A DNA stretch of 62,792 nucleotides, counting the filler. It is 6 parts of 6 records of this genome, joined end to end, with 100 filler letters (N's around TTAATTAATTAA, not from the genome) between each part and the next. Parts side by side here need not be neighbours in the genome. Positions count along the whole stretch, not along the records: positions 7,718 to 33,711 come from SRR31156797_6324; 5 more parts are not named here. One strand, written 5' to 3'. The notes under the pieces were generated by a model. It ran no database searches, was not told where the DNA came from, and saw only the letters and a program-made list of their open reading frames with translations. Shown piece after piece: positions 13,923 to 58,099 of the stretch. Both the position numbers and the translations under genes were made by a program. Each line of letters starts with the position of its first letter. The first letter of the stretch is position 1.

Positions 13923-14213
13923 TTATCTCTTGTCTTTATATCTTAGAATTTGGCTTCTTAATGCTTCAGTTACCAAATCTGTTGCTTCTTCGAATGTCTT
14001 GCTTTTCTTTTTGGCGAACAATTCGTTACCTGGAACATTCATTTTCACCTCAACCACTTTATTCTCTTTGTTACTTGCCTTGTCAACATTTAAAATTACA
14101 TCGTATGTAGTAACCTTATTCTCCAACTTCTCAAGTTTCTTCAATTTTTGGTTAATGAATGCTTCTAACTTCTCATCTGCCTTAAAACCTACGGATTGCA
14201 TTTTCATGTTCAT
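13923..14213 (-). CDS. hpf: Ribosome hibernation promoting factor (short HPF/RaiA)
   Basis: 'MQSVGFKADEKLEAFI...VPGNELFAKKKSKTFEEATD'. AGGAGG lies 7 nt before ATG 14213. Confidence 0.9.
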   Translation of the reverse strand: MNMKMQSVGFKADEKLEAFINQKLKKLEKLENKVTTYDVILNVDKASNKENKVVEVKMNVPGNELFAKKKSKTFEEATDLVTEALRSQILRYKDKR

Positions 14214-14650
14214 CACAATTCCTCCTATATTTGATATACACACGGGTGTATAAGTTAATATTCTGATAAATATAAACCGGTTTCTTTTCTTGCGCGTATG
14301 TTCAGCTTCGTTAAGCCTTTTCGATTAATCTTTGTACTTTGAAAGTACGCAAAAATTCTAAGTTTAGGAAACCAAACAAGCGTTTTTATTGAAGTTTAAC
14401 AAATATTAATTTTCAAAGTATTCAAAATAAGCCTACTAAAATTTTAAGTTTTTTAAATGTTAAAACTGTTGAGGAATTTTAACACTTGGATATACTGTTT
14501 AATGCCTATGATTACTGCTAAAACAACTGATATTGAGCTATTTTGTTTTACAAAATGATCACTTAGATGCAGATTTCATGATAAATATCAGTTTTTGTTT
14601 GTTTCTGAATTGTTAAATTAAAACATTGTTAAATCTTAAAACAGAAGAAG

Positions 14651-15118
14651 ATGCAAAAAAATGTATTTGATTTGGTTTTAACAGCTGAAGAGCTAACTCA
14701 GATTGATGGAGCTCTTGAAACACTTAACAATGTTTTGCTGCCTAAATTGGAGGTGCTTACCGGGAGTAAGAGAGACCTGCTGATTATGGGCGACAAATCG
14801 ATTGGTTTTGTAGATAAGGCTCATGAAGTAGCCCACCAGGAAACCGATTTGTTAGGTAGTTTTATTGATTTGGAGGCATTCGAACACGATGTGCAGGCAA
14901 TCGACAGTCTTCGTTCTATCAAGTACAAATTGAGTCAGCTGAATTCTGCTGTTGAAGATTCGTTCGCTGTGGCAGGCAGCGAAGCTTACAATGCATCATT
15001 AATGGTGTATAGTTTGATGAAAAATGCTGCCAAAATGGGACATCCCGGAGCTAAGGATATGGTAAGTGAGTTATCTGCCCGATTCCCAGGTCGTCCTAAA
15101 AAACAAACAGACGAATAA
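14651..15118 (+). CDS. Hypothetical 155-aa predominantly alpha-helical protein next to the 21-bp array
   Basis: Clean ORF with A-rich Bacteroidota-type start context and its own terminator. Motifs 'MGDKSIGFVDKA' and 'AGSEAYNASLMVYSLMKNAAKMGHPGA...RFP'. Confidence 0.85.
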   Translation: MQKNVFDLVLTAEELTQIDGALETLNNVLLPKLEVLTGSKRDLLIMGDKSIGFVDKAHEVAHQETDLLGSFIDLEAFEHDVQAIDSLRSIKYKLSQLNSAVEDSFAVAGSEAYNASLMVYSLMKNAAKMGHPGAKDMVSELSARFPGRPKKQTDE

Positions 15119-15144
15119 TACTCGCCTGCTTGATCTCTGTTAAT

Positions 15145-15175
15145 GAAAAGGGTACCACTGCACGGTATCCTTTTC
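15145..15175 (+). terminator. Intrinsic terminator after the 155-aa gene
   Basis: GAAAAGGGTACC-actgcac-GGTATCCTTTTC. Confidence 0.7.
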
Positions 15176-15279
15176 TCTTGTTACAATATCAGTAAAAGCA
15201 GGTGTTTTTCCAAAGATTCTGCCTATTCTTCCATTAACACTACTTCTGTTTATATAAAAGGATAGTACTTTGCCTGATA

Positions 15280-15744
15280 CATTAAAATATTGCTATACTA
15301 ATTATTCTAATGTGCTTGCTAAAGTTCAGTTTGGTAATTGATGAATACTTACTTTCTCTCGCTGATATATATAATATAGACTCTCACTTCAATATTCCTG
15401 TGTCTCATATTAAACATACTATCGATCACCTGCAAATTGTATTGCCCGACTTCCAATTTCCTCTTGGGGATAGCAAATTTTTTATTCGCGATAGTAAAAA
15501 AGATATCAAGAATAGAAAAGTAGATGTCATTCCATACTAAGTTTTCTATTGCTGATAGCAAGTTTGTAGTGGGACAATAGCAAATTGCTATACCTCCACT
15601 GAAATTTTCCTGTCAATGACGACAAAATTGCTATGCCTGCATATCTATTTGCATGTGCCGGATAGGAACAATGTTATTTGGGATAGCAATTTTGTATACG
15701 AAAAGCAGAAAACCCTGATGGGCCAGACTTCGATTCTGATTTAG
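15280..15744. repeat. Degenerate tandem array of about 22 dyad-symmetric 21(22)-bp units
   Basis: Unit starts are 15280+21n to 15511, then 15533, 15554, 15575, 15597, 15618, 15640, 15661, 15682, 15703, 15724. Manual counts: A2 21/22, A8 18/22, T11 17/22, T17 20/22. Consensus near GATAGCAAATTTGCTATC. Confidence 0.8.
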
Positions 15745-15802
15745 CTATTTAATGAACTTTACTTCGCGGGCAATGTCGCTGGTGAGTCTTGCCTGATGTA
15801 AA

Positions 15803-15920
15803 TAATAAGCTAATAAGGTGGTGAATATCCATAATCTTATACTACTAAGTTTTAAACCAATGAGTAAACCTTAGTAGAAAATAGATGCTGATGTGGGTAG
15901 AAGCTTATTAGCTTTAATTA
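15803..15920 (+). other. Long imperfect hairpin (~110 nt), possibly structured RNA or ssDNA
   Basis: AAGCTAATAAG/CTTATTAGCTT (15807-17/15904-14), TATCCATA/TGTGGGTA (G.U pairs), ATCT/AGAT and CTACTAAG/CTTAGTAG are nested. Confidence 0.6.
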
Positions 15921-16574
15921 CTAACCAGCTATAACAGGAGAAAGGAAATGTTGACGATAGTGATCAACTTTAAAATCTTGTACAGGTGTGGAAGAATTTA
16001 TGTATTTGTTTTTTACAGCTAAATATGATTTGGATCTTACGATTCCGGTATTAGCAGTACCTGATGGAGAATACAAAGCTGTTAGTTTAATCGGTCTCCC
16101 AAATATTTCCGACTCCAAAGCAACACCTCTGTTTTGTTTTATTTCTTTGGTTATTCTTAAGCCAAGTATATCTTGATAGAACAATTTAAATGCATTGTTT
16201 TTACCAAATCCACTTGTAAATAAGATTTCATCTATTTGAGATTCTTTAATCAGGTTAATTAAGTTATGATTTAGTTTTAAAGGAATTAGGTCTTTATCTA
16301 AAGATGAGTTATTTGTTCTTTCGCATTCAATAATAGTATCCGAAATCGAGATTTTATTTTCTGATAAAGTCTTTAGAATTCCTTCAACAGAAACTGGAAA
16401 TCCAATGCTATTGTCAAAAACTTCATTTAAGATATTCCATAAGCTCAATTTGTTTCCGTAGAAGAATGGAATTATGAATCTTTCATGATGATGAGGATGA
16501 ATTGTTCCTACAATTAATTTTTTACTTTCCTTATTAATAGGATATTTTCGTAAGTATTGATGTTTTGTAATCAT
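15921..16574 (-). CDS. Uracil-DNA-glycosylase-like (G:T/U mismatch glycosylase-like) protein
   Basis: 'KLIVGTIHP', 'FFYGNKLSLWNIL', 'SSLDKDL', 'ILFTS', 'LYSPSG' match UDG-superfamily motif positions. Confidence 0.65.
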   Translation of the reverse strand: MITKHQYLRKYPINKESKKLIVGTIHPHHHERFIIPFFYGNKLSLWNILNEVFDNSIGFPVSVEGILKTLSENKISISDTIIECERTNNSSLDKDLIPLKLNHNLINLIKESQIDEILFTSGFGKNNAFKLFYQDILGLRITKEIKQNRGVALESEIFGRPIKLTALYSPSGTANTGIVRSKSYLAVKNKYINSSTPVQDFKVDHYRQHFLSPVIAG

Positions 16575-16585
16575 TGTTTTGAGTA

Positions 16586-17542
16586 TTAATTTATCCAAGC
16601 TTGAATTTTGTCAATTAATTGCTTTTTGAATTTGCCTAGATCAGAATAAATAATGTGTGGATAATGATTGGTATCAAAATGTGTTTGCTTAAAATAATCT
16701 TCATGACAAGTATAGATTACGGGTTTCTTTAGCCCGAGAGCATATCCTGCTTCAAAATAAACACCATGTTTTTGTTCCGTAAAATCACCAATTAAGAATT
16801 TACTCTTCTTTATATTACTGATGATAGCATCATTAATGGTAACATCACTATCAACATGAATTTCATCAATTAAAATTGGTTTGTATCCACATTCAATAAT
16901 TGCATCTTTAAGCGTACTTCTTATTGCCTTTACTTCTTCAGAATCATTAAATGACATGGCGATGAAACAGTTTTTGGATTGTGTGCTATTTTCTTGAAGA
17001 TTGATGATGTACTCTAATCCTTTAAATGTGATACAGATATTCATCGCATTTGGTCCAGACATATCAGTGATATCAGTATATGACACAAGGCTCATATTTT
17101 TTAATGTACTTAGATAAAACCAATATTCTTCGTGATTTTTAAGGTATAACTTGTTTAGTTTCAATTCCCATTCCTGAATTGAGTTAGTTTCTAAATTAAT
17201 AACCGCGCCTTCATATTCTTGTTCATTGTATAAATACAATAAAAGGTTATCTAACTTTTCTTTGGGAGTTTTTGGAACTTGGGCTTCACGGATAGCTTTT
17301 TCAAGAACCTTATTATCAAAATAGGACTTTTCGAATGGGAGTATACCGTTAGTAAGTAAGCCTTTTAAGATGTATCGGTTTTCTTCTACAAATTTAGAGT
17401 TTTGATGATCGTAATGACAAATAAATTGTAATCTCTTACCATTGATTACTATTTGATATTCAATAGCATCAGTAGGGCTAGAAATATTAAGTGTTGGTAA
17501 ACCAGTAATAAAACATTTTTCTGGAGCTGGTCTCATTCCCAT
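16586..17542 (-). CDS. Nucleoside 2-deoxyribosyltransferase-like (NDT/TIR-like) domain protein with N-terminal winged-helix-like region
   Basis: 'CFIAMSF...AIIECGYKPILID...INDAIISNIKKSKFLIGDFTEQKHGVYFEAGYALGLKKPVIYTC...HFDTNHY'. Confidence 0.75.
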   Translation of the reverse strand: MGMRPAPEKCFITGLPTLNISSPTDAIEYQIVINGKRLQFICHYDHQNSKFVEENRYILKGLLTNGILPFEKSYFDNKVLEKAIREAQVPKTPKEKLDNLLLYLYNEQEYEGAVINLETNSIQEWELKLNKLYLKNHEEYWFYLSTLKNMSLVSYTDITDMSGPNAMNICITFKGLEYIINLQENSTQSKNCFIAMSFNDSEEVKAIRSTLKDAIIECGYKPILIDEIHVDSDVTINDAIISNIKKSKFLIGDFTEQKHGVYFEAGYALGLKKPVIYTCHEDYFKQTHFDTNHYPHIIYSDLGKFKKQLIDKIQAWIN

Positions 17543-17692: not shown

Positions 17693-18940
17693 ATGGCAAA
17701 AAAGAAGAAAAAAGGCAAAAACAAGCAAGTTATACGTAAACCCTTAACTAGAAAGGAAGGTATTAAGGTGTTTGAAAAAAAGATGTATGAATTTTTAATT
17801 AACAAGTTTCCTCATAAATACGAGCTTCGTTTTACACAAAAAGAAATGAAGTACATGTATATTTATCGGATTGTGGTGCCAAATCCGGTCAAAACCGAAG
17901 GTCAGAATACGAGTACCAATGAACTGAATCGAATTGGGCATATTATTCAAAAGAAATTACGTGAGCCTATGTTGTACCATGATGGAGAATGGTATAGTAC
18001 TATTGAATTGGGATTGTTGTATTGCTATTTTAATAATATGAATAACAATAATACTACACCTCAAAGGCGTATGGAATTGTGGCAGTATATTGGGAGTGCC
18101 AGTAAAATTGAATTAAGTCCTGATCAAATAACTATGCATTATGTAGCTGCATTTAGAAAGACCGTTACAGCTATTTCGAGTGTTAGAAATATGATTTATA
18201 GCTTGGATTTGCGTGAAACATATTGTGATCCAAATAATCCTGCATTAGAATTTGGTCATCGGTTGGGCGTTGGATATGCAAGTAAAAAATCAATTGATAT
18301 TAATGGGAATTCCAGATTGGTTTATCGATTTGTTTTGCCACGCATACATAATGAGCCTTGGTATGGGCAAATGTATGCTTCTGACTTAAAAGAGGTGTAT
18401 AGCGGAAATAAGAAAATGCTGGATATATATATTCAATCTCATGCCCTGGAACGCTTAAGGGAAAGGTTAGACTTGTTGGATGAAGAAGCTATCAACTATG
18501 CCATATACGAAAATTTTGATGCACTTCAATTCACTATCTTAAGTAACGGTTACATCTTAATTACAATTAAATTGTTTCAATGCAAAGTAGGTTACTTTAT
18601 TGCCAATATTATTAAGGATGATTTTGTAATTCGAACCTTCCTGTTTATTACCCATGCTACCAGTCCGGAAGGAGATAAACTAAAAGAGATCTGTGGATTG
18701 GGAAGAAATGATGTGCCTTACTGGAAGATAGATCGATTGAGTACTTTTATGAATGTGGATGCAGAACAATACCCTAAATTATCTGCCATGTTCGAAGAGG
18801 CGGGTTGTGGCGATTTGTTCAAACTGCACAACGAAAAGTTCTCGGTAGAAGCTATGCAAACTGCCAATCTCGATGGGTTAAGAGACTACATCAAAAGTGG
18901 AAAGCAGGAGATGTCCGATGAGTTGCTGGAATCGAGTTGA
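17693..18940 (+). CDS. Hypothetical protein (415 aa, basic N-terminus)
   Basis: Long ORF with AAAGGAGG upstream. No recognisable domain. Confidence 0.75.
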   Translation: MAKKKKKGKNKQVIRKPLTRKEGIKVFEKKMYEFLINKFPHKYELRFTQKEMKYMYIYRIVVPNPVKTEGQNTSTNELNRIGHIIQKKLREPMLYHDGEWYSTIELGLLYCYFNNMNNNNTTPQRRMELWQYIGSASKIELSPDQITMHYVAAFRKTVTAISSVRNMIYSLDLRETYCDPNNPALEFGHRLGVGYASKKSIDINGNSRLVYRFVLPRIHNEPWYGQMYASDLKEVYSGNKKMLDIYIQSHALERLRERLDLLDEEAINYAIYENFDALQFTILSNGYILITIKLFQCKVGYFIANIIKDDFVIRTFLFITHATSPEGDKLKEICGLGRNDVPYWKIDRLSTFMNVDAEQYPKLSAMFEEAGCGDLFKLHNEKFSVEAMQTANLDGLRDYIKSGKQEMSDELLESS

Positions 18941-57093: not shown

Positions 57094-57523
57094 TCTGCCC
57101 CCCGAACAGGTGGCCCAGCATCCCCCCGAGGTTCGGGGTACCGCGAAACTGATGGTTATGGACCGCAAAACAGGTGCGGTGGAGCATAAGAATATGCAGG
57201 ACTTTCCCGACCTGGTGGAGCCGGGCACCCTTGTGGTTTTCAACAATTCACGGGTGCGCAAGGCCCGCGTCTTCGGCCTGTCCAAGCACGGCGGCAAGGT
57301 GGAGTTCTTCTTCCTCAAGATACTTGAGAAGGACCTGTGGCTCTGCATGGTCTCCAAGGCCAAGAAGCAGAAGGTCGGTAAGGTCTTCGACTTCCCCGGC
57401 GGTCTGAAAGGGACGATCGAGGAGGAGGTGAGCTCCAATCACAGAAAGGTGCGCTTCTCCACTCCCGTGGACGATGACTATCTGGATGTTCACGGCCATA
57501 TCCCCCTGCCTCCCTATATCAAG
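57068..57523 (+). CDS. queA: tRNA preQ1(34) SAM ribosyltransferase-isomerase QueA (3'-truncated)
   Basis: '[15 protein letters not shown]', 'LVVFNNSRV', 'GHIPLPPYI'. Confidence 0.93.
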
Positions 57524-57623
57524 NNNNNNNNNNNNNNNNNNNNNNNNNNNNNNNNNNNNNNNNNNNNTTAATTAATTAANNNNNNNNNNNNNNNNNNNNN
57601 NNNNNNNNNNNNNNNNNNNNNNN
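57524..57623. other. Artificial contig linker
   Basis: N44-TTAATTAATTAA-N44. Confidence 0.98.
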
Positions 57624-58099
57624 ACGCCACCATCGAGGCGGCCCGGGCCGGGGCCGAGGGAAAAGGGTTCGCCGTGGTGGCTGGGGAGATCAAAAGCCTG
57701 GCCCAGCAGACCGCCGGGGCCACCCAGGAGATCAAGCAAACGATCATGAACATCCAGGACGCCACCCGGGAAACGGTTTCCGAAATCGAGGAGATCACCG
57801 GAGCCATCACCCATGTAAACGAAATGATCGATCATGTTGCCGCCTCGGTTGAAGAACAGTCCGCCACCACCGCGGAGATCGCCAGCAACGTGGGCCAGGC
57901 GGCCGACGGCATCCGGGAGGTCACCGGCAACATCACCCGCGGTTCGGACGCCGCCGCCCGCATCGCAACGGATATGGCGGACGTCAACCAGGCCTCCCAC
58001 CGTATGTCGGACAATGGATCAAAAATCAACGACAGTGCCGAAGAACTGAACCAATTGTCCCAACGGCTGAAACAAAAGGTGGATCAGTTCAAGGTTTAA
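57624..58099 (+). CDS. Methyl-accepting chemotaxis protein, C-terminal signalling domain (5'-truncated)
   Basis: '[26 protein letters not shown]', '[11 protein letters not shown]'. Confidence 0.93.

What the first reader, a model, noticed from the sequence alone, without database searches (positions are those of the whole stretch)
14651..15744. Stand-alone 155-aa helical protein as the likely cognate partner of the array (candidate new protein + array system)
Seen: a monocistronic gene with its own terminator (15145-15175) sits about 160 nt before the array. It has no signal peptide or enzyme motif, long amphipathic helices, conserved-looking blocks (MGDKSIGFVDKA; AGSEAYNASLMVYSLMKNAAK..HPGA...L.ARFP) and a basic tail (GRPKK). 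My unverified recollection is that similar hypothetical proteins are widespread in Bacteroidota and other phyla and have no assigned function. Inference: the gene and array form one module, for example a DNA-coating, silencing or nucleoid filament, a decoy or titration array, or an RNA-array-binding effector. It is inserted between hpf and a defence-like gene pair.
Basis: partly seen in the sequence, partly recalled or inferred. Interest (0 to 1): 0.8.

Follow-up and report, generated by a model that had tools for sequence, protein, structure and literature searches.

The report
Protein gene with cognate repeat array
A small, widespread, unnamed bacterial protein is almost always encoded next to its own private array of about sixteen 21-base repeats, which points to an undescribed protein–DNA module whose cellular role is still unknown.

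Summary
Window 14651-15118 (+) is a real, expressed 155-aa all-helical gene. It ends at a terminator (15145-15175) and is followed by a roughly 410-bp array of degenerate 21-bp units (about 15287-15700).

In 80 metagenome loci of the family, 58 of 63 testable downstream flanks carry a 21/42-bp periodic array, against 3 of 69 upstream flanks. In a Bacteroidota genome sample the figures are 19 of 28 against 2 of 28. One clade has the array upstream instead.

Each paralog, even within one genome, has its own partly palindromic motif. Orthologs share motif and unit order, with no indel across genera. Arrays are typically 336 bp, about 16 units.

The family is large (1325 clusters at 50% identity). 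It has no match in Pfam, NCBIfam, PHROGs, PADLOC, PDB or by fold. A symmetric homodimer is predicted (0.70 against 0.00 for controls).

My best reading (about 0.5) is that the dimer binds its own phased array on double-stranded DNA and builds a large nucleoprotein complex, often at the edge of variable or defence islands. DNA binding itself is not shown. Rival readings are a repeat RNA, a purely structural cis element, and a landing site for mobile DNA. I found no description of this module.

The parts
14651..15118 (+). 155-aa all-helical protein of a large uncharacterised family. It is acidic (pI 5.0) with a basic C-terminal tail and is predicted to form a symmetric homodimer.
   Evidence: The ORF is. 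It is the only family member in the window (hmmsearch E 2e-58). The family has 1325 representatives at E<=1e-3. The model has pLDDT 94.7. pI is. The dimer scores 0.70 against 0.00 for the best control. Metatranscriptome contigs of relatives cover 14642-15150.
15145..15175 (+). Intrinsic-terminator-like hairpin that closes the gene
   Evidence: 12 pairs, 7-nt loop, T-rich tail. It is nearly invariant in three other genera. Across the family, 31 of 69 loci have such a hairpin within 130 nt of the stop, against 5 of 62 control windows.
15179..15243 (.). Conserved non-coding block between terminator and array. Its role is unknown.
   Evidence: Alignment A2 columns 61-125 are 66% identical between the window and Marinifilum or Ancylomarina. 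The next spacer is 35-47% identical.
15287..15700 (.). Array of about 14 degenerate 21-bp units with core motif GATAGCAA followed by T-rich bases, which makes a partial dyad. The distal 265 bp (15429-15693) align unit for unit across genera without any indel.
   Evidence: Over 263 gap-free columns, 159 are identical to Marinifilum. For comparison, 27 of 51 four-fold degenerate sites in the gene are identical.
15577..15591 (.). Perfect 15-bp palindrome: two core motifs head to head inside the array
   Evidence: Read directly. It also appears as arms of inverted repeats I2, I10 and I19.
15711..15724 (-). Terminator-like hairpin on the minus strand at the far edge of the array. The array therefore lies between two convergent terminators.
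15747..15791 (-). 45-nt remnant of the 3' end of a PDC-M62B-like (Septu-like HNH) defence gene. That gene follows the array intact in related genomes.
   Evidence: tblastn gives 13 of 15 residues identical to the C-terminus of the 301-aa protein of L001. That protein hits PADLOC PDC-M62B at E 2.7e-65.

Best explanation
The 155-aa gene and the array are two halves of one conserved module.

I propose that the protein is an obligate two-fold symmetric dimer. It would recognise the partly palindromic core of each 21-bp unit of its own array on double-stranded DNA. Because the units repeat every two helical turns, about 16 dimers would sit on one face of some 336 bp. Together they would form a large cooperative nucleoprotein complex, comparable in architecture to a plasmid centromere or iteron complex.

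The array is shielded from transcription by terminators. Each paralog carries its own motif, so several such complexes can coexist in one cell without cross-talk.

What is shown:
- the coupling of gene and array;
- the 21/42-bp phase and the constraint on it;
- paralog-specific motifs;
- presence of the gene in RNA libraries;
- a predicted dimer.

What is inferred:
- that this protein is the binder;
- that the target is DNA and not RNA;
- what the complex does.

My guess for the role is a fixed protein-DNA landmark (boundary, roadblock, silencing nucleus or anchor) at the edge of variable, horizontally acquired DNA.
For: Coupling of gene and array.
- 58 of 63 downstream against 3 of 69 upstream flanks in metagenome loci.
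- 19 of 28 against 2 of 28 in a phylum sample.
- 10 of 12 paralog loci in five genomes; 5 of these 12 repeat earlier loci, and 6 of the 7 new ones have an array.
- In one clade the array is instead 100-220 nt upstream of the start codon. Adjacency is therefore conserved, not a 3'-UTR or promoter position.
- No other gene is conserved next to the array beyond close relatives.

Specificity.
- Motifs differ between paralogs of one genome. For 14 within-genome pairs PWM similarity is 0.16-0.62.
- Motifs are shared by orthologs (0.73-0.94).

Constraint on the array.
- No indel in 263 aligned columns across genera. Identity is 0.55-0.75, against 0.27-0.55 in the flanks.
- Array length is narrowly distributed: median 336 bp, IQR 287-380, n=46.

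DNA rather than RNA.
- Dyad mismatches are mostly non-wobble: 350 Watson-Crick, 69 other, 25 G-T, 18 A-C.
- Both strands fold equally well as RNA (z -3.1 and -3.9).
- Base composition is nearly strand-symmetric: purine fraction above 0.5 in 34 of 61 non-redundant arrays.
- Terminator-like hairpins flank the array on both strands.
- RNA contigs of relatives from two studies end at the gene's 3' end (a weak hint only).

Dimer.
- Score 0.70 against a best control of 0.00. The mark was reached by 21 of 30 proteins solved as pairs of one chain and by 0 of 23 solved as single chains.
- The three runs agree in at least 90% of contacts, and partner pLDDT is at least 81.
- The interface is symmetric and antiparallel along the long helix. 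The model supports binding; it does not show it.

Basic patches.
- Net positive charge at residues 31-50 and 121-130, and a conserved RF-(P)-x-x-K/R-K tail.
Against: - No experiment or model shows that the protein touches DNA.
- The family is acidic (median pI 5.5; the window protein has pI 5.0 and net charge -8).
- It has no recognisable DNA-binding fold or motif. Foldseek found nothing at E<=0.001 in PDB or BFVD. VIA-align's best Z is 5.2, and those matches are long helices only.
- Dyad symmetry within units is modest: only 2-5 pair columns per array reach 60% Watson-Crick.
- Motif differences between paralogs could arise from independent tandem duplication without any co-evolving reader.
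- Motif sharing by orthologs could be plain vertical inheritance.
- The most variable protein segment (profile 85-105) lies in the predicted dimer interface rather than on an obvious reading surface.
- One RNA-library contig contains a 39-nt piece of a relative's array, so transcription is not excluded.
Confidence: 0.5

Rival explanations
1. The array is transcribed, by read-through or from its own promoter, into a repeat RNA that binds or is processed by the protein. This would be a protein plus repeat-RNA pair, analogous to type III toxin-antitoxin systems (ToxIN) or to protein-sponging RNAs such as CsrB.
For: The general layout matches: a tandem repeat array beside a gene of about 160 aa, a terminator between them, repeats specific to each protein, and frequent neighbourhood of defence genes. 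One poly-A RNA-library contig contains a 39-nt piece of a relative's array, at a depth (4.4) similar to the gene contig of that run (3.5). An acidic protein is no better suited to DNA than to RNA.
Against: - The array lies after the gene's terminator in most loci (58 of 63).
- High-depth RNA contigs of relatives from two studies stop at the gene's 3' end.
- There is no excess of G-U over A-C mismatches (25 against 18).
- There is no strand bias in folding energy or composition.
- A minus-strand terminator-like hairpin abuts the array.
- No Rfam family reaches threshold.
- No ToxN-like or other nuclease family is detected.
- Units are 21 nt in about 16 copies, not 34-45 nt in 2-6 copies (the latter figures are recalled).
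Confidence: 0.15
2. The array is a structural cis element: phased, curved or stiff DNA made by local tandem duplication. It would be read by a general host factor or by none. It could act as an insulator, a supercoil or replication barrier, or a regulator of the adjacent gene. The protein would have a different job and would not recognise the motif.
For: - Every lineage has a different motif but the same 21/42-bp period and a similar total length. This is what selection on phase rather than on sequence would give.
- A/T tracts occur at about 0.67 per unit.
- The protein is acidic and has no known DNA-binding fold.
- Some arrays are nearly identical repeats, with up to 0.99 autocorrelation, as expected from recent duplication.
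Against: - This does not explain why such arrays are found almost only beside this one gene family, on either side of it, and nowhere else in the 62.8-kb window.
- In old, degenerate arrays the same core positions stay conserved in unit after unit and across genera, which points to sequence readout.
- A high-GC member (68% GC) has an array without A/T tracts.
Confidence: 0.2
3. The array belongs to something else nearby. It could be an attachment or landing site for mobile or defence islands, the end of a mobile element, or the binding site of the 415-aa basic protein (17693-18940) that lies beyond the defence pair.
For: - The array side borders R-M, defence or mobile genes more often than the other side: 11 of 45 against 4 of 49 neighbours by my own reading of Pfam hits (Fisher p 0.047).
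- Examples include an integrase directly after an array (L135), an IS3-like ORF (L029, read by eye), PDC-M62 pairs, SIR2-HerA and Cas4.
- In the window a defence gene was replaced next to the array.
- Homologs of the 415-aa protein abut the array in L006, L007 and L009.
Against: - Most arrays have ordinary housekeeping neighbours.
- The 415-aa family is adjacent only in one orthologous group, 6 loci.
- No recombinase is conserved nearby.
- Gene and array are the resident, vertically inherited part in Marinifilaceae.
- Proximity to islands is compatible with the main explanation.
Confidence: 0.08
4. The array encodes a heptad-repeat peptide, since 21 nt corresponds to 7 codons.
For: Open frames with regular heptads run through some arrays, for example a 97-aa ORF in L058 and a 134-aa ORF in L049, and a 76-aa ORF at window 15310-15540.
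Against: - The window ORF is interrupted by a stop codon in the closest relative L001 (sequence read).
- Unit spacings of 20, 22, 41 and 43 bp are common and break any frame.
- Frames differ between orthologs.
- Exact 21-bp repeats are expected to stay open in some frame by chance.
Confidence: 0.02

Closest known systems
Plasmid centromere modules: a small centromere-binding protein with adjacent tandem repeats (SopB-sopC of F, ParR-parC of R1 and pSK41, omega, TubR-tubC). Details are recalled, not from a call.
   Same: A small dimeric protein is encoded directly beside an array of phased direct repeats that contain short inverted repeats. The array can lie upstream or downstream of the gene. 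Repeat periods are multiples of the DNA helical turn; sopC has 43-bp units (recalled), and many arrays here have a 42/43-bp super-period. Each system has its own specificity.
   Different: - No partition NTPase is found next to any of the loci examined.
- The loci are chromosomal, with up to 6 per genome.
- tblastn finds no hit in 72,556 plasmid records.
- The protein has no RHH, HTH or winged-helix signature.
- Arrays are longer, at about 16 units.
Iteron origins with their Rep initiator (pSC101, R6K, RK2, P1; recalled)
   Same: Direct repeats of about 20 bp spaced two helical turns apart, next to the gene of the protein that reads them. Each replicon has its own iteron sequence.
   Different: The protein is 155 aa and shows no Rep family hit. 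There are 13-30 units instead of a handful. The loci sit at vertically inherited chromosomal positions. No DnaA-box cluster was looked for.
Type III toxin-antitoxin systems (ToxIN, CptIN, TenpIN; recalled)
   Same: A tandem repeat array and a gene of about 170 aa are separated by a terminator. The repeats are cognate to the protein. The systems are often found among defence genes.
   Different: - There the repeats are upstream, co-transcribed and act as RNA. Here they are mostly downstream of the terminator, and the data lean against RNA.
- The protein is helical rather than a ToxN-type fold, and PADLOC gives no hit.
H-NS-like nucleoid and silencing proteins (recalled)
   Same: A small, acidic, largely helical protein that oligomerises through long helices and carries a short basic C-terminal DNA-contacting segment. 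A subset of this family has a GRP core that resembles an AT-hook. It is often located beside horizontally acquired genes.
   Different: There is no sequence or fold match to H-NS, Lsr2, MvaT or Rok. H-NS has no private array of specific sites next to its gene. The basic tail is not universally AT-hook-like, and one array is GC-rich.

Membership tests
Plasmid partition locus (centromere plus centromere-binding protein plus NTPase) | A ParA-, ParM- or TubZ-type NTPase gene in the same operon or locus | tested here: not met
   No gene family recurs next to the module beyond close relatives. Pfam scans of 45+45 downstream and 49 upstream neighbours show no partition NTPase.
Plasmid partition locus (centromere plus centromere-binding protein plus NTPase) | Array of phased tandem repeats adjacent to the gene of the binding protein | tested here: met
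   58 of 63 downstream flanks, 19 of 28, and the window array.
Plasmid partition locus (centromere plus centromere-binding protein plus NTPase) | The binding protein has an RHH, HTH (ParB) or winged-helix fold | tested here: inconclusive
   No Pfam hit. No Foldseek match at E<=0.001. VIA-align's best Z is 5.2, and the matches are long helices only. A missing match does not exclude a fold.
Iteron-Rep replication origin | An initiator protein of a Rep family with winged-helix domains | tested here: not met
   The protein is 155 aa and all-helical, with no Pfam or NCBIfam family.
Iteron-Rep replication origin | AT-rich unwinding element and DnaA boxes beside the iterons | not tested
   Not searched for.
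Type III toxin-antitoxin (ToxIN-like) | ToxN/AbiQ-type endoribonuclease toxin | tested here: not met
   No Pfam or PADLOC hit for the window protein or for 4 other members. The model is all-helical.
Type III toxin-antitoxin (ToxIN-like) | Repeat array upstream of and co-transcribed with the protein gene, acting as RNA | tested here: not met
   The array is downstream of the terminator in 58 of 63 loci. No strand or G-U signal is seen. Expression of the array itself could not be settled.
CRISPR array | Identical repeats separated by unique spacers of similar length | tested here: not met
   Units abut one another with a 21-bp period and there are no unique spacers.
H-NS / Lsr2 / MvaT / Rok silencers | Sequence or fold membership in one of these families | tested here: inconclusive
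   No Pfam hit, no PDB sequence hit better than E 0.2, and no such chain among the fold-search rows. Absence from these lists does not exclude distant kinship.
Known RNA family (Rfam 15) | A match reaching the family's gathering score | tested here: not met
   In 14200-16000 there are only two sub-threshold matches: 25.6 bits against a gathering score of 115, and 20.4 bits against 270.

The most novel reading that the evidence does not exclude
This is a new class of chromosomal 'private array' modules. An orthogonal family of dimeric helical proteins would each polymerise on its own array of about 16 units to build a fixed nucleoprotein landmark. The landmark would insulate, silence or anchor the adjoining variable DNA, so that defence and mobile islands accumulate behind it. 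This would be a Bacteroidota-centred counterpart of xenogeneic silencing or of chromatin boundary elements, with programmable specificity.
Probability: 0.2. Interest if true: 0.92.

Novelty: categorically new. Interest (0 to 1): 0.85.

Why it matters
If the reading is right, a family with more than a thousand 50%-identity clusters has so far been annotated only as 'hypothetical'. It would define a widespread way of building large, sequence-addressed protein-DNA complexes on bacterial chromosomes.

- It offers dozens of natural, mutually orthogonal protein/operator-array pairs. These could serve as tools for DNA labelling, roadblocks or scaffolds.
- It may explain how phyla that lack H-NS-type silencers mark or tame the borders of horizontally acquired and defence DNA.
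- Even if the array acts as RNA or as bare DNA structure, a gene-array coupling of about 92% is a strong handle on an unknown function. It is directly testable in culturable marine Bacteroidota.

Tried and rejected
Family and fold searches with no usable result for the 155-aa protein:
- Pfam, NCBIfam, PHROGs and PADLOC.
- Pfam on all 62 aligned members: three families, each hit by 1 member at E 0.003-0.009.
- Pfam on 8 longer members, which showed no fused domain.
- PDB by profile, best E 0.2.
- Foldseek against PDB and BFVD, and VIA-align wide.
- ESM Atlas, which returned only unnamed Bacteroidota clusters and no named ones.

Other searches with no hit:
- tblastn against plasmid and phage collections.
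- A viral-contig scan with member P0061.
- The 62-row alignment could not be used for a collection scan. An 11-row subset was used instead.

Tools not available:
- No whole genome is held for the window.
- A locus cannot serve as the centre of a genome search.

Literature:
- Five full-text searches gave nothing on such a module. I saw only the listings and opened no paper. Supplements were not consulted.

RNA runs:
- Contigs leave most of the array uncovered. Contigs cannot show absence of transcription.

Analyses that did not discriminate or were rejected:
- The coding reading was rejected: a stop codon in L001 and frame-breaking spacings.
- The RNA-hairpin reading was not supported.
- A/T periodicity showed only the harmonics of 21 bp, with no special 10.5-bp signal.
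- A sigma-70-type promoter scan found no more sites than in shuffles, 5 against 7.1. Bacteroidota promoters are not covered by that scan.
Full report
**What is in the window.**
- The ORF at 14651-15118 (+) encodes 155 aa. It is the only member of its family in the window (hmmsearch of the six-frame translation, E 2e-58).
- It follows hpf at 13923-14243 (-) (PF02482, E 3.8e-17). It ends at a terminator-like hairpin at 15145-15175.
- Downstream there is no gene on either strand until 15921.
- In a sliding autocorrelation scan of all 62.8 kb, 15311-15721 is the only stretch with sustained 21/43-bp periodicity. One other hit, at 57401-58051, is caused by N runs.
- A unit finder returns 14 units with spacings of 21, 22, 42 or 64 bp.
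- The core GATAGCAA (up to 1 mismatch) is not enriched in the window as a whole (53 found, 56.8 expected). However, 10 of the 53 lie within 15290-15689. Two cores form a perfect 15-bp palindrome at 15577-15591.
- A second terminator-like hairpin, on the minus strand, sits at 15711-15724. The array therefore lies between convergent terminators.

**The protein.**
- It has no match in Pfam, NCBIfam, PHROGs or PADLOC.
- phmmer against 1.84 billion cluster representatives finds 1325 proteins at E<=0.001 and 326 at E<=1e-10. Nearly all are 150-170 aa.
- None of the 62 members has a credible Pfam hit. A profile search of PDB sequences gives nothing better than E 0.2.
- The AlphaFold2 model is confident (pLDDT 94.7, pTM 0.76) and all-helical, with one 55-residue helix.
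- Foldseek finds no match at E<=0.001 in PDB or BFVD. VIA-align's best Z is 5.2, on single long helices only.
- The family is acidic (median pI 5.5; window protein 4.98, net charge -8). It has basic patches at residues 31-50 and 121-130 and in the tail.
- A homodimer is predicted with score 0.70 against 0.00 for the best of three controls.
  - The mark was reached by 21 of 30 proteins solved as pairs of one chain and by 0 of 23 solved as single chains.
  - Runs agree in at least 90% of contacts, and partner pLDDT is at least 81.
  - The interface is large, two-fold symmetric and antiparallel along the long helix.
  - This supports dimerisation but does not show it.
- Contigs from RNA libraries of four runs cover the gene. 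Two high-depth contigs of relatives span 14642-15150 and 14642-15118 and stop at the gene's 3' end. Contigs cannot rank expression or prove ends, so this is only a weak hint of a monocistronic message.

**The decisive comparison.**
- The closest relatives are in Marinilabiliales. The best locus is a Labilibaculum MAG at 95% identity.
- In Labilibaculum, Marinifilum and Ancylomarina the same gene is followed by the same hairpin and an array with the same core motif. In Carboxylicivirga, Labilibacter and Saccharicrinis orthologs (56-60% identity) the array has the same 21-bp period but a different motif, CCAGAAnnTTCTGG.
- Five of these genomes hold 1-6 paralogs each. Of 12 paralog loci, 10 have a 21/42-bp array on the 3' side. 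Five of the 12 repeat earlier loci; of the 7 new ones, 6 have an array. Each has its own motif.
- In a sample of 301 genomes of the phylum, 25 carry the family. In 28 loci from them, 19 have the array downstream and 2 have it upstream.
- A scan of metagenome contigs with an 11-member sub-alignment gave 80 loci with G+C from 0.30 to 0.68. Of 63 with at least 400 nt downstream, 58 have the array. Of 69 with at least 400 nt upstream, 3 do (Fisher p about 1e-27).
- In one clade (genome G172) the array lies 100-220 nt upstream of the start codon instead. It has up to 17 or more near-identical units.
- No other gene is conserved beside the module outside close relatives.
- The module is therefore gene plus array, on either side, and nothing else.

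**Properties of the arrays.**
- Length is narrowly distributed: median 336 bp (16 units), IQR 287-380, n=46. Arrays start a median of 49 nt after the stop codon.
- A terminator-like hairpin lies within 130 nt of the stop in 31 of 69 loci, against 5 of 62 control windows.
- Many arrays alternate two unit variants, giving a 42/43-bp super-period.
- Units contain short inverted repeats, but the dyad is partial: 2-5 pair columns per array reach 60% Watson-Crick.
- Between the window and Marinifilum or Ancylomarina, the distal 263 columns of the array align without a single indel.
  - Identity there is 0.55-0.60 between the window and these genera, and 0.75 between those two genera.
  - Four-fold degenerate sites of the gene are at 0.53-0.61, or 0.75 between those two genera.
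  - The adjoining non-coding flanks are at 0.27-0.55.
  - The invariant positions recur with the unit period.
- Phase and core positions are thus under constraint.
- PWM similarity is 0.57-0.94 for the 8 pairs with at least 78% protein identity. The median is 0.32-0.37 for the 245 pairs below 60%.
- Fourteen within-genome paralog pairs score 0.16-0.62.

**DNA or RNA?**
- Mismatches in dyad columns are mostly of the non-wobble kind: 350 Watson-Crick, 69 other, 25 G-T, 18 A-C.
- The window array folds equally well as RNA on both strands (z -3.1 and -3.9).
- Composition is almost strand-symmetric: purine fraction above 0.5 in 34 of 61 non-redundant arrays.
- Rfam has no family at threshold.
- Frame-breaking spacings and a stop codon in the closest relative argue against a repeat peptide.
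- Together with the flanking terminators, this favours a double-stranded-DNA element.
- Transcription is not excluded. One RNA-library contig holds a 39-nt piece of a relative's array.

**Surroundings.**
- In the window the array is followed by three features.
  - A 45-nt remnant of a PDC-M62B-like gene at 15747-15791 (-): 13 of 15 residues match.
  - A convergent pair at 15921-17542 (-): one gene is weakly like DNA-deoxyinosine glycosylase, the other is TIR or nucleoside-deoxyribosyltransferase-like.
  - A 415-aa protein with a basic N-terminus and no known family.
- In L001, L002, L004 and L005 an intact PDC-M62 pair (Septu-like ATPase plus HNH) follows the array.
- Across the metagenome loci I classed 11 of 45 array-side neighbours as restriction-modification, defence or mobile. 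They include C5 and type III methylases, TIR, a reverse transcriptase, an integrase and RHS. On the other side I classed 4 of 49 that way (p 0.047). The classification is my own reading of the Pfam names.
- In G172 two convergent family genes bracket a methylase cassette.
- The gene and array are therefore the resident part, and the DNA beyond the array is often variable.

**Interpretation.**
- The simplest account of three facts is that the protein reads its own array. The facts are a protein family coupled at about 92% to a private, phase-constrained, partly palindromic array; paralog-specific motifs; and a predicted symmetric dimer.
- Units two helical turns apart would put all dimers on one face of the DNA, giving a complex of about 16 dimers over about 336 bp.
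- The nearest known architectures are plasmid centromeres and iteron origins (recalled). Their defining partners, an NTPase or a Rep initiator, are absent.
- The ToxIN-type layout fails on protein fold and on array position. CRISPR fails on the lack of spacers.
- I put 0.5 on direct, specific DNA binding by this protein, and about 0.9 on gene and array being one functional unit.
- What the complex does is a guess: boundary, roadblock, silencing nucleus or anchor. It rests only on the neighbourhood statistics.
- Against my reading:
  - the protein is acidic;
  - it has no known DNA-binding fold;
  - its most variable segment (profile 85-105) lies in the predicted dimer interface;
  - motif diversity could arise by independent tandem duplication without a co-evolving reader.

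**Novelty.**
- Five full-text searches returned nothing on such a module. I saw listings only.
- No curated library holds the family.
- I cannot exclude a description in papers outside the searched library.

Noticed in passing
window 15747-15791 (-): A 45-nt remnant of the 3' end of a PDC-M62B-like (Septu-like HNH) gene. The gene is intact after the array in L001, L002, L004 and L005. This indicates that one defence system was replaced by another at this spot.
   Followed up: yes
window 15921-17542 (-): A convergent two-gene pair. The 225-aa protein is weakly like DNA-deoxyinosine glycosylase (TIGR04274, E 2.7e-4, below cut-off). The 318-aa protein has a TIR or nucleoside 2-deoxyribosyltransferase-like C-terminal domain (PADLOC TIR effector E 1e-8; phrog_16139 E 5e-29). 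This may be an undescribed defence pair.
   Followed up: partly
window 17693-18940 (+): A 415-aa protein with a lysine-rich N-terminus and no Pfam, NCBIfam, PHROG or PADLOC hit. Its homologs lie directly beside the array in L006, L007 (two copies) and L009, but not beside arrays of other paralogs.
   Followed up: partly
window about 57520-57620: Two runs of N around a TTAATTAATTAA linker, followed by much more G+C-rich sequence that reads like a methyl-accepting chemotaxis protein. The window is a concatenation of contigs, possibly from different organisms.
   Followed up: no
L054:2150-5450: Between two convergent family genes of genome G172 lies a tandem satellite of about 378 bp in about 8.5 copies. 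It has no long ORF and contains G-rich tracts.
   Followed up: no
L055:1536-7202: Two convergent family genes bracket a 4.7-kb cassette with a C5 DNA methyltransferase-like gene and three further ORFs of 708, 204 and 206 aa. Only the first gene has an array, and it is upstream.
   Followed up: partly
L026, L028 (distal edge of array); L098, L084 (proximal edge): In several unrelated arrays the edge units are replaced by G-run variants of the type GGGGG-TA(T)ACC/TTC-GGAGGTGGG, repeated in phase. This may be a shared cap element or a G-quadruplex-prone segment.
   Followed up: no
L002:4960-5040 and L005 (two copies after the array): A shared element of about 75 nt with inverted repeats follows the array in two Marinifilum genomes and is duplicated in one of them. 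It may be a small mobile or structured element.
   Followed up: no
L013 and G005:C67:64609-64922: In Saccharicrinis the ortholog of the window gene survives only as fragments with stop codons, yet a 21-bp periodic stretch is still detectable beside it.
   Followed up: no
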